This document shows, in pieces, positions 60,001 to 64,000 of a stretch of DNA of 64,000 bases. Made by a program: the position numbers. The stretch is from Ophelia neglecta (lineage: Eukaryota): contig OZ260661.1 in assembly GCA_965285935.1 (NCBI GenBank), positions 61,814,001 to 61,878,000 of the forward strand, in the 5' to 3' direction. Each line of letters begins with the position of its first letter. Position 1 is the first letter of the stretch.

Positions 60001-63000
60001 TTAAAATGAATTCCAGTGGCCCTACATGATTTAAGTCACTGACTGTCACCGGAAATGGCCTAGTTGGCCAGTTGCCCTTTACTTGGTCAAAATTAGGGGT
60101 ATAAAATCACTGTACATAATTTGGGCAAATTCGGCTTGAAATGAGATCTAGTGGTCCAAGTGATTTGTTTGAGTAATTGTTAATGTTCTTACAGCAACTC
60201 TTTGAATTGGCAACTGAGACAACCTTCAGCTGCCAATACAATTTTTGAACTTAAATTAGAAATTGTGGTTAATAATCTCCTAAATTAGGGCTAATTAGTC
60301 TTGAAATGAGTTCTAGTGGTCCCAATGATGGTCATTGTTCATTGTTAATTAATGTTCTTTTAGCATTTTTTTGATTCGTCAACGAAAAGCTGGAATTGGC
60401 AACCTACTATGTTAGCTGACGGTTGACAGTGGCCTCTTCGAATCGTCAACTACAATGAAGTTAGCAGATTATTCAGTTGACAATTCGAGTTGATATGATG
60501 ATTCATTGACAATACAATCTGCATCACAAATGTGGCCGGGGCGCGGGCGCCTTTGCGGCAGCAGATTTGAGTATCGGCCTCCCTAGCTCCAGGGAATTTT
60601 TTTAAGATCTCGTAGATATTTGCAGAGCGGAAAAACGCATAATAAACGTCTCAAATATAAGTATGTCATCTGGGAGAATGAAAAGATAAAATATGTCTTG
60701 AGACTGAATTGTTTGAAAGATAAATTTACATGTAAATGTTGGCACAAAACATTTTTTCTTTAATATTGACACAATATCATGACATTGGCAATTCCTCTAA
60801 TATCGACTTGATACATGCATTTTCTTAAATACTGACACACGATATTGGCATTTCCATATACATATATATTTATATTTGACACTCAAGACATCGTCTACAT
60901 TCTGCGCACCCGTGTATACTTATATTCTTACAGTTAATCGAATTTTTGTCACAATAAGAATATAAGCAAATCATGAATAACCTTTCAACCACATTACACT
61001 ACATTGGGATCTATTAAAATTCAGCCACGAAAGAACAGTGTCCTGAACAAGTCTATGTATACAACCATTTTTCCATTTTACGCATGTATTATCATATATT
61101 CATGAGCACAGCATACCGGGCTTATACATTTATGTAGTAGACACTTTTAAGTCATACAGCTTTAAACTCTCTTGATAGCACACGAGTCATCTTGGAACAA
61201 AATGAGCGGAGAAAAAGCAATTGTTCGTTCTTGGCCAGTTTTCATCATAGTTTCGATATCTTTTGGTGTACAAGTGGTGATTTTTTTGATGATATGGGGA
61301 CAAATACCTACGGAAATGAACCAAACTTTGGGGAAAGTTGGTGAAAAAATTCAGCAAGTGGTAAAAGAAATGGAAACTCGAGGTCCCTCCGCTGTTTGCT
61401 CTAAGGTTCGTAACAATTTAAGGTCTGCAAATTTGAACATAAGTTCGTTTCGTTACTTATCACAGTTGTTATTTGCTTCTATGATGGCAAGGTCTCTAAA
61501 TAGGGTGACATTTGAGTTGAAAATAAAAGTGAAATCGCCCGACTATAAGTTAACATTCCACTACTTCAAAAGTAAGTTTATTTAGGACACTTTTGTTTAC
61601 GCTAGTTAATACATTTCAAAATGGCAAAAACAACCCATTTTAATGACTAGTCTGCTAAATATATTGCATGATTAAACTCTTTGTTCTTCTTCCTTTATAA
61701 ATCCTATATGAAAAATGTGAGAAGTGTTGTGATATGCTTAAGACACACAAACGCCAACGAAGGAATAAATATCCAGTCTCGAGCTGACCCAAACTCATTG
61801 GCATATTTCTTCTTGAATTTTTCAAATCTTTAAGCCATTTTCTTACAATTTTGGAGTTTTAAAGATACTTCTAGTTCTTAACCAACTCCTATGGCGAATG
61901 ATAGAAATTTCTACAGTTAACAACCAAGCTAGTGAATTCAGGGCCACATTTTGCATTCCGCGGCGAGACGCAAAATTCAAACAGCTCGACCACAGAAGCG
62001 TTCACAAACTATAGACCCTACACAATAAATTGATAAAAAAAAGGAAAAGGACTTCGTAATATGTGATAATACTTGTCCCTTTCTTTGGTTGATTTCTAAA
62101 ACTTCCTACTACCACTTTGTCATGTACTTAGACCATGTTTTTTTCACCTTTGCCGGTTGTGTAAACAAATTCCTCCTTTCCTTCCGCCTTAACGATGATA
62201 ATTCAAATGACAGTTTCATAATAAATAAGAGGAACACCGCTAATGTACAGAATGAGATGTATGATTCATTTGGTTTCAGTCCAATTGTGATAATCGTTAG
62301 TCCCTAAATTCACAATGAATTAATGAATGAATCTTTTATCACCAAGTTAGTATAATTTACAATCGTATATCATTATTACATTCAAAACACAAATATACAA
62401 TATACAATAGCATTTTGTAAATAATAATAAATATGGTGAGTATACTGACAATTAGTAAATGTTAAGAGACAGAGTGAAATACACACGTGCTTATATGCCA
62501 CACATTTAGTCAGATAATAAACCAAGCATGGTGCAAAAGGAGCAAAAGTAACTCAATGATTAATTGTAGTTAATTTACAAAATAATAATGCTTAATGACT
62601 CATGAAACATTCAGTGTCATCAGGGTGCATTCCGGAAGGCATGGCTTTTTTAATGAAATTCATCACTGTCCAGGAAAAGAGCAAATCACACACGTATACA
62701 AGGCGCTGAAAGAACCACCAGCGAGCTCGTACAATATGGAAATGAAAAAGTCGGTAAATGCCCAGCACATATTACAGGCTTTAGGATAGCATAGCTGGCA
62801 GCTTGTTGATCTCGGTGAGAGATCATATTCCAGTACACACTTTAATAGTATGAGGAGGAAGGGTGGGATTTGTATGTTTTGACACGGCATTGGTAATGCT
62901 TTTTAAACGATGCAACGGTATATATATATATATTTAATCAGATGTCTTTTTTTATACTTCATAGGTGAAAATAATAAAAGATGGCGTGGGCCATACCAGA

Positions 63001-64000
63001 GATGGCCAAGAAGTTTTCAGGTGAATAGATACGTACTTCAGATTACATGTCGCCTGAAAACCTGTCTCTCTTTTATCAAATTCGGTATTTGTAAACCTAA
63101 TTGTCATATTATACAGCGAACACATGTCTTTCTAGATACACATTTAGAAATGAGAACGATTTGGAGCTGCAGATATTGACCTACGGCGGCATAATTTCCT
63201 CAATAAAGGTACCTGATAAAGACGGTAAATTTGTCGATGTTGTTTTGGGATACGACTCTCTTCTAGGTGAGCAAATTATAAAAACTTTATTTTCCAATTC
63301 AGTATTTTCCATCTTGCTATTTCAAACGGTCGCATGTGTAATACGGTGAAACCTGTCTATGTAGTCACCAGTGTTATAAGGTCACTTGCCAAATAAGGTC
63401 ACTAAATAACAATCCGGTCTCATTTGAACCTTTGTCAATTGACCTGTTTATTAATGCCACCTACATAATGTGGTAAGTTTTTCCAACAACCCTTTAAGGA
63501 GGAGTTGATTTCGTGGCGCTGGTGTTTCCTTCTACTGTGTCTACACGACAACGATAGGTTACTGCAGCATATTTGTTTGGGAATTTGCTTCTAACTATTA
63601 TTTATTTACTCTTCCATAAACCTTAATACATACAACTTGAATCATATATTAAACTAAGATACGACGAAACTTCAAGGCTGTTTGCCCAATGTACCATTTT
63701 GCCCCATGTCTCGTTTTGCTCGCTCAGTGCATAGGAGAATTGACGAGGAGCGGTAGATTCGTGCAGTCGAATCAACGGGGCGCGACATCACCAATATATT
63801 TGCATGGTCATATAGTGTGGCTTGAGACAATGAGCAGTAGATTCGAGACAATGAGCAGTAGATTCGTGCTTCCGAATCTACTGCCCTCTGAATAGAGAGA
63901 CGTCACAAGAATATTTTAATTCCTTATAAAACATGGTCTGTGAGTCTATTGAGTAAACTGTATCTTTGTTAGAATATGAAGAGAACCATAACTATTTTGG

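What the first reader, a model, noticed from the sequence alone, without database searches (positions are those of the whole stretch)
61202..63266. Galactose mutarotase with a predicted type II membrane anchor
Seen: the GALM-homologous exons begin with a phase-0 acceptor and no Met of their own. The best upstream phase-0 exon I found encodes a 10-residue tail, a 22-residue hydrophobic segment (61232-61297), an N-glycosylation sequon NQT (61319-61327) and a helical stem. Known: animal GALM is a soluble cytosolic enzyme, whereas tail-TM-stem-catalytic domain is the layout of Golgi or cell-surface glycan enzymes. Inference: a luminal or ecto-mutarotase paralogue, possibly coupled to extracellular sugar digestion or uptake or to glycan processing.
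Basis: partly seen in the sequence, partly recalled or inferred. Interest (0 to 1): 0.65.

Follow-up and report, generated by a model that had tools for sequence, protein, structure and literature searches.

The report
Mutarotase gene with probable membrane-anchor exon
An invertebrate gene for a sugar-anomer-converting enzyme, most similar to exported bacterial versions, probably begins with an exon encoding a membrane anchor or export signal, which would put the enzyme outside the cytosol; transcript data are needed to prove the join.

Summary
Exon 1 (61202-61405) encodes a 10-residue tail, a 22-residue hydrophobic segment, NQT and a helical stretch. The mutarotase exons (62965-63020, 63136-63266) have no start codon.

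The exon looks real:
- Its hydrophobic segment is one of 2 that strong in all six frames.
- Its polar part has exon-like composition, and this stops at the proposed donor.
- A CpG-undepleted domain starts 0.7 kb upstream and covers all three exons.
- Only 1 such start exon occurs in 128 kb, about 0.012 expected here by chance.

About 0.7 short ATG exons with a strong donor are expected here by chance.

The enzyme is not vertebrate-type GALM. Exon 3 is up to 79% identical to bacterial mutarotases, and 76 of 105 have export-type N-termini. It matches human GALM only at E=0.043.

The join, anchor versus cleaved signal, and the catalytic residues (beyond the window) remain untested. The host is a lophotrochozoan, probably an annelid, not human.

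The parts
60501..64000 (.). CpG-undepleted domain that contains exon 1, intron 1 and mutarotase exons 2-3. It begins about 0.7 kb upstream of the ATG at 61202.
   Evidence: All seven 500-bp windows from 60501 have CpG o/e of 0.65-1.06. Only 13 of 128 windows in the whole window reach 0.6, and the window mean is 0.34.
61202..61405 (+). Proposed first coding exon: 68 codons from ATG, ending at the phase-0 donor AAG|GTTCGT.
   Evidence: Translation. Donor 5.85 bits, within the 2.3-10.4 range of 9 confident donors in the window. The polar part has exon-like composition, in the top 1.1% of the null. No homologue was found and no Pfam family.
61232..61297 (+). 22-residue hydrophobic segment, WPVFIIVSISFGVQVVIFLMIW: a signal anchor, or the h-region of a signal peptide.
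   Evidence: Kyte-Doolittle 19-residue mean of 2.74, one of 2 such segments in six frames. Modelled as helix 4-34.
61319..61327 (+). NQT sequon, 8 residues after the hydrophobic segment.
   Evidence: Read. It is too close to the membrane to count as evidence (distance rule recalled).
61406..62964 (+). Inferred intron 1 (1559 nt), ending in the acceptor ttttttatacttcatag.
   Evidence: Sequence. No internal repeats or transposon-like self-matches. The first 180 nt stay open in frame but have non-coding composition.
62433..62441 (+). Rival start: ATG followed at once by the donor GTGAGT, in phase 0 with 62965.
   Evidence: Best donor (10.23 bits) of 192 candidate ATG..GT phase-0 exons. ATGGTRAGT occurs 3 times in 128 kb. 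Short ATG exons with a donor of 9 bits or more occur 19 times in 128 kb, so 0.69 are expected in this 4.66 kb.
62965..63020 (+). Mutarotase exon 2, VKIIKDGVGHTRDGQEVF plus 2 nt. It has no start codon of its own.
   Evidence: Alone it is too short for significance: best E=0.14, GHTRDGQEV against GKTPDGQEV. 7 of 26 HSPs are collinear with exon 3.
63136..63266 (+). Mutarotase exon 3, the start of the aldose 1-epimerase domain.
   Evidence: Pfam PF01263 at E=3e-6. 105 relatives with up to 79% identity. It matches all 17 columns invariant in an alignment with 13 bacterial relatives. Donor TAG|GTGAGC at 63267.

Best explanation
The gene encodes a bacterial-type aldose 1-epimerase (mutarotase) in a lophotrochozoan genome. 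Its first coding exon is 61202-61405, spliced to 62965.

That exon supplies a short N-terminal tail, a 22-residue hydrophobic helix and a helical linker of about 36 residues. The helix would engage SRP and Sec61, so the catalytic domain would be translocated into the ER lumen. It would end up either tethered as a type II membrane protein or, if signal peptidase cuts after the helix, secreted.

There it would speed up alpha/beta anomer interconversion of free galactose or glucose outside the cytosol, for example next to secreted glycosidases or sugar transporters. This mirrors the exported bacterial enzymes it most resembles.

Shown: the exon's sequence features, their rarity, coding-like composition, phase compatibility, and the bacterial-type similarity. 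Inferred: the splice, the topology, the enzyme activity and the physiological role.
For: - The hydrophobic segment is 1 of 2 that strong in six frames.
- The only ATG ORF in 128 kb with an early hydrophobic segment that strong plus a donor of 5 bits or more is this one. About 0.012 are expected by chance in the 4.66 kb upstream stretch in the right phase.
- Residues 33-68 score 0.159 in composition, the top 1.1% of 1079 null windows. Six known exon segments score 0.08-0.22. The read-through after the donor scores -0.09, near the null median of -0.114.
- The exon holds the best 30-residue window on either strand of 57.8-64 kb, ranking 20th of 1173 in the whole window.
- The donor (5.85 bits) lies within the range of 9 confident donors, 3 of which score lower.
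- The CpG-undepleted domain begins at about 60.5 kb and spans exons 1-3. At the neighbouring SDR gene the CpG-rich patch is confined to the 500 bp around its start.
- Exons 2-3 have no start codon.
- 76 of 105 nearest relatives of exon 3 carry a hydrophobic N-terminal extension of 15 residues or more.
- The model shows two helices.
Against: - No transcript evidence exists.
- No homologue of exon 1 was found among longer proteins or among 1.84 billion representatives. The one hit there, E=4.4e-4 in a 1191-residue protein with 5 matched stretches, I take as spurious.
- The rival start, ATG|GTGAGT at 62433, has a much better donor (10.23 bits) and would give a normal cytosolic-type N-terminus. 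24 of 105 relatives start within a few residues of the exon 2 equivalent.
- The donor GTTCGT is non-consensus at +3 and +4.
- The ORF stays open 60 codons past the donor, a 3.6% event by chance (587 of 16,500 sampled positions). This could mean a longer exon or a stand-alone 127-residue ORF.
- The codon-usage test was uninformative.
- Only 62 residues of the enzyme lie in the window, so activity and catalytic residues are unchecked.
Confidence: 0.58

Rival explanations
1. Soluble enzyme only. Translation starts at ATG 62433-62435, a one-codon coding exon spliced to 62965. This gives M+VKIIKDG..., a cytosolic mutarotase. 61202-61405 would then be a chance ORF, a relic, or part of something else.
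For: Best donor of 192 candidates, 10.23 bits. A at -3 and G at +4 around the ATG, and about 100 nt upstream free of ATG. The resulting N-terminus has the same length as the short-form relatives, 24 of 105. Human and C. elegans GALM have solved structures of 344 and 339 residues; that they are cytosolic is recalled.
Against: Short ATG exons with a strong donor are common by chance: 19 in 128 kb, so 0.69 are expected in this stretch. One-codon ATG|GT exons with a donor of 9 bits or more account for 5 of the 19. This reading leaves unexplained the exceptional hydrophobic ORF, its exon-like composition that ends at a phase-0 donor, and the CpG domain starting 1.9 kb upstream of this ATG.
Confidence: 0.22
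2. Two isoforms from alternative first exons. A promoter near 61.1 kb gives the anchored or secreted form, and one near 62.35 kb gives a cytosolic form.
For: Both start exons are phase-0 compatible with 62965. Both layouts exist among the nearest relatives, 76 exported-type and 24 short of 105.
Against: The second start is of a kind expected by chance. There is no evidence for a second promoter.
Confidence: 0.18
3. 61202-61585 is an independent small gene for a 127-residue single-pass membrane protein, or a longer exon using another donor (61504 in phase 0, or 61572 in phase 1). It would not be the mutarotase leader as drawn.
For: The ORF is open for 139 codons, one of 7 ORFs that long in the window. 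Only 3.6% of positions stay open for 60 further codons. AAA|GTAAGT at 61572 is a good donor at 7.95 bits.
Against: Residues 69-127 have non-coding composition, -0.09, with 40% of the null at or above it. No Pfam family and no homologue of residues 1-68. The 61572 donor is in phase 1 and would need the purine-rich acceptor at 62980, 16 nt after a far better one.
Confidence: 0.1
4. Exon 1 is used, but its hydrophobic helix is a cleavable signal peptide. The enzyme would then be secreted and soluble rather than type II anchored.
For: I-W-G before Q34 fits the -3/-1 rule, and G33 and P36 break the helix (helix break at 35-36). The nearest bacterial relatives are released or lipid-tethered after signal cleavage: 47 of 105 have a lipobox-like motif.
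Against: A 22-residue h-region is long for a cleaved signal; typical ones are 7-15 residues (recalled). No predictor was available here.
Confidence: 0.25

Closest known systems
Exported (lipoprotein or periplasmic) aldose 1-epimerases of Verrucomicrobiota, Acidobacteriota, Planctomycetota and Bacteroidota
   Same: Exon 3 is 56-77% identical to 13 aligned examples and up to 79% to the best hit. It matches all 17 invariant columns. In the GTDB scan, 546 of 600 pattern matches encode relatives; the best is 69%, from a Verrucomicrobiae MAG. 76 of 105 have a hydrophobic N-terminal leader ahead of the domain.
   Different: The window gene has at least three spliceosomal introns, host-like AT-rich composition and animal neighbours. 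Exon 1 has no lipobox cysteine and no detectable similarity to the bacterial leaders. Its leader is longer: 68 residues against 22-61.
Vertebrate and nematode cytosolic GALM (PDB 1SNZ/1SO0 human, 1LUR C. elegans)
   Same: Same Pfam family, Aldose_epim. Same N-terminal strand region aligned.
   Different: Only about 35% identity over exon 3, with E=0.043 (human) and 0.0021 (C. elegans). Those proteins have no N-terminal hydrophobic leader (lengths of 344 and 339 residues; cytosolic location recalled).
galM candidate acquired by horizontal transfer in root-knot nematodes
   Same: An animal genome carrying a mutarotase gene attributed to bacterial origin. It is listed under 'nutrient processing' in the HGT table of PMC7593179 (passage read).
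   Different: Different phylum.
Putative extracellular aldose 1-epimerase AEP3 of Hypocrea jecorina (Trichoderma reesei)
   Same: A eukaryote with intracellular and putatively extracellular mutarotase paralogues (PMC2749017, passages read).
   Different: Fungal and predicted secreted, not membrane-anchored. Not compared by sequence.
Type II Golgi glycan enzymes (e.g. ST6Gal sialyltransferase, yeast Kre2p/Mnt1p)
   Same: The same layout: short tail, one membrane span, stem, luminal catalytic domain (abstracts in the listings).
   Different: No homology. Those enzymes act on glycans with nucleotide sugars, whereas a mutarotase acts on free reducing sugars. Golgi retention cannot be inferred from the sequence here.

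Membership tests
Aldose 1-epimerase (Pfam PF01263, EC 5.1.3.3) | Match to the family profile above the curated cut-off | tested here: met
   Exon 3 alone scores 27.3 bits against a cut-off of 27, E=3e-6, covering profile positions 3-42 of 299. This is borderline because only 43 residues are available. It is backed by 105 relatives at E<=0.01.
Aldose 1-epimerase (Pfam PF01263, EC 5.1.3.3) | Catalytic His and Glu and the sugar-binding His and Asp (positions recalled from the L. lactis and human enzymes) | not testable with these tools
   These residues lie downstream of the 'HGG' region. No further mutarotase exon lies between 63267 and 64000, and the window ends there.
Orthologue of vertebrate-type cytosolic GALM | Closest relatives are animal GALM proteins | tested here: not met
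   None of the 105 hits carries an animal name. Of the 11 hits named with an organism, 10 are bacteria and 1 is Symbiodinium. The same database returns many annelid, mollusc and insect proteins for the neighbouring ZEB-like gene. Human GALM matches at E=0.043.
Type II signal-anchor membrane protein | Short N-terminal tail followed by one hydrophobic segment of about 19 residues or more near the N-terminus | tested here: met
   10-residue tail and 22-residue segment with a 19-residue Kyte-Doolittle mean of 2.74. Helix 4-34 in the model.
Type II signal-anchor membrane protein | More positive charge on the N-terminal (cytosolic) side | tested here: inconclusive
   The tail has K5, R9 and E4, net +1 plus the free amino terminus. 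The 17 residues after the segment have 2 E and 2 K, net 0 (read). The bias is small.
Type II signal-anchor membrane protein | The anchor is not removed by signal peptidase | not testable with these tools
   No signal-peptide predictor was available. I-W-G|Q is a possible cleavage site, but the long h-region argues for an anchor (rule recalled).
Type II signal-anchor membrane protein | The anchor exon and the catalytic exons are on one mRNA | not testable with these tools
   There are no transcript data. The support is indirect only: phase, composition boundary, CpG domain and chance rates.
Horizontally acquired bacterial gene in an animal genome | Nearest relatives are bacterial while the gene is integrated in host DNA | tested here: met
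   Up to 79% identity to bacterial proteins with lipoprotein signals. Canonical GT-AG introns, host-like G+C of 0.36, and animal genes upstream on the same strand.
Horizontally acquired bacterial gene in an animal genome | A supported phylogeny nests the gene within bacteria, and it is absent from related animals | not tested
   Only 62 residues lie in the window.

The most novel reading that the evidence does not exclude
A lophotrochozoan, probably an annelid, acquired an exported bacterial mutarotase by horizontal transfer. The gene then gained spliceosomal introns, and the bacterial lipoprotein signal was replaced by a new eukaryotic signal-anchor exon. The result would be the first membrane-tethered ecto- or luminal mutarotase of an animal. 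It may also have a cytosolic isoform from the alternative ATG|GT start at 62433, so one gene would serve sugar anomer conversion on both sides of the membrane.
Probability: 0.2. Interest if true: 0.65.

Novelty: new variant of a known kind. Interest (0 to 1): 0.45.

Why it matters
Animal galactose mutarotase is treated as a cytosolic enzyme of the Leloir pathway. An exported or membrane-tethered animal mutarotase would imply that anomer conversion can limit extracellular sugar digestion or uptake. That is the role periplasmic mutarotases are thought to play in polysaccharide-degrading bacteria.

If the bacterial-type similarity reflects horizontal transfer, the locus would also show how a transferred exported enzyme is re-fitted with a eukaryotic targeting exon.

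My four literature searches for a membrane-anchored or secreted animal mutarotase found none. They did find a nematode galM HGT candidate and a putative extracellular fungal paralogue. The library does not cover most subscription journals, and supplements were closed.

Tried and rejected
1. Homologues of exon 1. There were none among longer proteins: 21 candidates, none at E<=0.01. Among 1.84 billion representatives there was one weak hit, which I take as spurious.
2. Codon-usage log-odds trained on the window's own exons. It was uninformative. Exon 1 scored -0.085 (42% of 179 null windows at or above) and known exons 2 and 3 only 0.03-0.04. One of the six training segments (57192-57308) was out of frame, with 2 stops.
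3. Exon 2 alone against the relatives: best E=0.14, and only 7 of 26 HSPs were collinear.
4. A transposon or repeat origin for 58.3-63 kb. Only three short local repeat pairs were found, none touching 61000-62964.
5. The phase-1 donor at 61572 with the acceptor at 62980. Rejected for the poor acceptor.
6. The out-of-frame ATG at 62981. It runs into a stop in exon 3 (read).
7. NQT as evidence of a luminal location. Rejected because it is too close to the membrane and likely by chance.
8. Cluster-member names for the best hits: the database was switched off.
10. The spliced (joined) protein was deliberately not assembled, searched or folded. Every exon was handled on its own.
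Full report
**Setting.** The window is AT-rich animal DNA (G+C 0.32-0.48) with no N. On the + strand it carries three genes.
- A ZEB/zfh-1-like zinc-finger homeobox gene, with an 806-codon exon at 43468-45888. Its best named relative is from the annelid Paralvinella palmiformis (44% identity, 98% coverage). A nemertean, molluscs and further annelids follow.
- A short-chain dehydrogenase gene at 53304-57782, with Pfam adh_short at E=1e-9. Its product ends in SKL, a peroxisomal-type C-terminus.
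- The mutarotase-like gene of the finding.

The host is therefore a lophotrochozoan, probably an annelid. It is not human.

**The observation.**
- 61202-61405 reads MSGEKAIVRS-WPVFIIVSISFGVQVVIFLMIW-GQIPTEMNQTLGKVGEKIQQVVKEMETRGPSAVCSK and ends AAG|GTTCGT in phase 0.
- The mutarotase frame begins at 62965 behind a strong pyrimidine tract. TAG lies in frame at 62962-62964, and exon 2 (62965-63020) has no in-frame ATG.
- Exon 3 (63136-63266) matches Pfam Aldose_epim: E=3e-6, 27.3 bits against a cut-off of 27, profile positions 3-42 of 299.
- A single-sequence AlphaFold model gives helices 4-34 and 37-60 with mean pLDDT 74. This fits 'membrane helix plus helical stem'.

**Is exon 1 more than chance?**
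- *Hydrophobicity.* Among 42,396 19-residue windows in stop-free stretches of all six frames, only 2 separate segments reach its Kyte-Doolittle mean of 2.74 (5 reach 2.6 and 17 reach 2.4).
- *Start-exon scan.* I scanned both strands for ATG-initiated ORFs with such a segment in the first 30 residues and a downstream donor of 5 bits or more. The scan finds 1 in 128 kb, this one. That is about 0.012 expected in the 4.66 kb between the upstream gene and 62965, in the right phase. With the threshold relaxed to 2.0 there are 6, or about 0.07 expected.
- *Composition score.* I built a log-odds score comparing average protein composition (frequencies recalled) with the window's own non-coding ORFs. 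Residues 33-68 score 0.159, in the top 1.1% of 1079 null windows. Six known exon segments score 0.08-0.22.
- *Composition boundary.* The 59 residues read through past the proposed donor score -0.09, close to the null median of -0.114. So the coding-like signal stops at or near 61405.
- *Best local window.* The best 30-residue window of the exon is the top-scoring one on either strand of 57.8-64 kb. It ranks 20th of 1173 in the whole window.
- *Donor strength.* The donor (5.85 bits on an approximate, recalled consensus matrix) is weak at +3 and +4. Even so, it lies inside the range of nine confident donors of this window (2.3-10.4 bits), and 3 of those 9 are weaker. One of them is also a GTT donor, at 53425.

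**CpG evidence.** The window is strongly CpG-depleted overall (o/e 0.34). Only 13 of 128 500-bp windows reach 0.6, and seven of those are the contiguous windows 60501-64000 (o/e 0.65-1.06). This undepleted domain starts about 0.7 kb upstream of ATG 61202 and covers exon 1, the intron and exons 2-3. At the neighbouring dehydrogenase gene the CpG-rich patch is confined to the 500 bp around its start codon. This fits a transcription unit that begins near 61 kb, but it is indirect evidence.

There are 192 candidate ATG..GT phase-0 first exons between 57000 and 62964. The best donor by far is ATG|GTGAGT at 62433-62435, at 10.23 bits. Spliced to 62965 it gives M+VKIIKDG..., a start at the same position as the short, cytosolic-type relatives.

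This kind of feature is common by chance, however. Short ATG exons (up to 11 codons) with a donor of 9 bits or more occur 19 times in 128 kb. That makes 0.69 expected in this stretch; 5 of the 19 are one-codon ATG|GT exons. ATGGTRAGT itself occurs 3 times. So the rival cannot be excluded, but it is much less surprising by chance than exon 1. Both may be used.

**A point against exon 1 as drawn.** Its ORF stays open for 60 codons past the donor, to 61585. That happens at 587 of 16,500 sampled non-genic positions, or 3.6%. A stand-alone 127-residue ORF, or a longer exon, is therefore a rival. The non-coding composition of that extension and the lack of any Pfam family speak against it.

**What kind of mutarotase.**
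- *Database search.* Exon 3 finds 105 proteins at E<=0.01 among 109 candidates, with up to 79% identity. The 16 I read are uninterrupted proteins. Twelve have hydrophobic N-terminal leaders, most of them ending in a lipoprotein-type cysteine. The other four start directly at the domain.
- *Who the hits are.* Of the 11 hits named with an organism, 10 are bacterial and 1 is a Symbiodinium record. None is an animal, although the same database returns many animal proteins for the ZEB-like gene.
- *Alignment and GTDB scan.* In an alignment with 13 relatives, exon 3 shares all 17 invariant columns. Of these, 546 encode relatives. The best 80 are 50-69% identical and come from Verrucomicrobiota, Acidobacteriota, Planctomycetota, Bacteroidota and Bacillota.
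- *Solved animal enzymes.* They are far more distant: C. elegans at E=0.0021 and human at E=0.043, with about 35% identity in the printed alignments.
- *Leaders among relatives.* 76 of the 105 relatives have an N-terminal extension of 15 or more residues with a hydrophobic stretch, and 47 have a lipobox-like motif. 24 have short N-termini, and 5 have long but non-hydrophobic ones.

So the nearest family is predominantly exported, which raises the prior for a targeting exon here. The gene itself is clearly eukaryotic in structure, with GT-AG introns at 63021-63135 and after 63266 and host-like composition.

Horizontal acquisition is a reasonable reading, and there is a precedent in root-knot nematodes (PMC7593179, table passage). 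It is not established, because only 62 residues of the protein lie in the window.

**Mechanism.**
- *Inferred.* The hydrophobic helix acts as a signal anchor, or as a cleavable signal if peptidase cuts at I-W-G|Q. Either way the catalytic domain ends up in the lumen of the secretory pathway or outside the cell. There it would equilibrate the anomers of free sugars released by glycosidases.
- *Weak or undecidable.* The charge bias for an N-in topology is small (net +1 against 0). NQT lies 8 residues from the helix, so it is not evidence of luminal exposure (distance rule recalled). Whether the protein resides in the Golgi or at the cell surface cannot be read from the sequence.

**Literature.**
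- A putative extracellular mutarotase paralogue is described for Trichoderma reesei (PMC2749017, passages read).
- Plant apoplast and secretome papers mention aldose 1-epimerase (search listing only).
- None of the papers listed from four searches for a membrane-anchored or secreted animal mutarotase described one.
- Supplements were closed and might hold relevant gene lists.

**What was left out or could not be done.**
- The spliced protein was not assembled, searched or folded.
- Cluster-member names and the ESM Atlas were unavailable.

**Verdict.**
- Observation: confirmed.
- Interpretation: partly supported.
- My estimate is about 0.6 that exon 1 is joined to the mutarotase exons in at least one transcript.
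- About 0.2 that the gene makes only a soluble enzyme from ATG 62433.
- The remainder covers a separate ORF or an unseen exon structure.

Noticed in passing
window 63136-63266 (and 62965-63020): The mutarotase exons are of bacterial type. Exon 3 is up to 79% identical to bacterial lipoprotein-type enzymes, and none of the 105 hits is a named animal. It is only about 35% identical to human and C. elegans GALM. This makes it a candidate for horizontal acquisition with later intron gain.
   Followed up: partly
window 60501-64000: A 3.5-kb CpG-undepleted domain (o/e 0.65-1.06) sits in an otherwise strongly CpG-depleted window (o/e 0.34). A tight cluster of 10 CpGs lies at 60537-60647, inside a GC-rich patch. 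It may mark a germline-unmethylated locus or younger DNA.
   Followed up: partly
window 62433-62441: ATG|GTGAGT is a one-codon start exon candidate in phase with 62965. It is a possible alternative first exon for a soluble isoform.
   Followed up: yes
window 43468-47596 (+): A ZEB/zfh-1-like zinc-finger homeobox gene with an 806-codon exon and a C-terminal zinc-finger exon at 47288-47596. The best named relative is from the annelid Paralvinella palmiformis (44% identity); an unnamed record reaches 69%.
   Followed up: partly
window 53304-57782 (+): A short-chain dehydrogenase gene of at least 8 exons whose product ends in SKL, a peroxisomal-type signal. It resembles trans-2-enoyl-CoA reductase (name recalled). 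Its first donor is a non-consensus TAG|GTTTGA.
   Followed up: partly
window 58371-58487: A short tandem array of a unit of about 16 nt (...cagtatgcccgttttt...) lies downstream of the dehydrogenase gene. Further local repeat pairs lie at 58905-59020 and 60118-60383.
   Followed up: no
window 63740-63884: Inside intron 3 there are 21-nt direct repeats (two identical tandem copies at 63824-63865) and a 27-nt imperfect inverted repeat. The stretch is CpG-rich and may be a small mobile-element remnant.
   Followed up: no
window 53866-53917 and 57581-57600: Long C-rich homopolymer-like runs (cccccccctccctccc...) lie in introns of the dehydrogenase gene.
   Followed up: no
window 10941-10997 (+): This is the only other segment in six frames as hydrophobic as the exon 1 helix (VVCFFSTILVFLLYLLLLL, Kyte-Doolittle 2.93). 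It lies in a 35-codon ORF and was not examined further.
   Followed up: no
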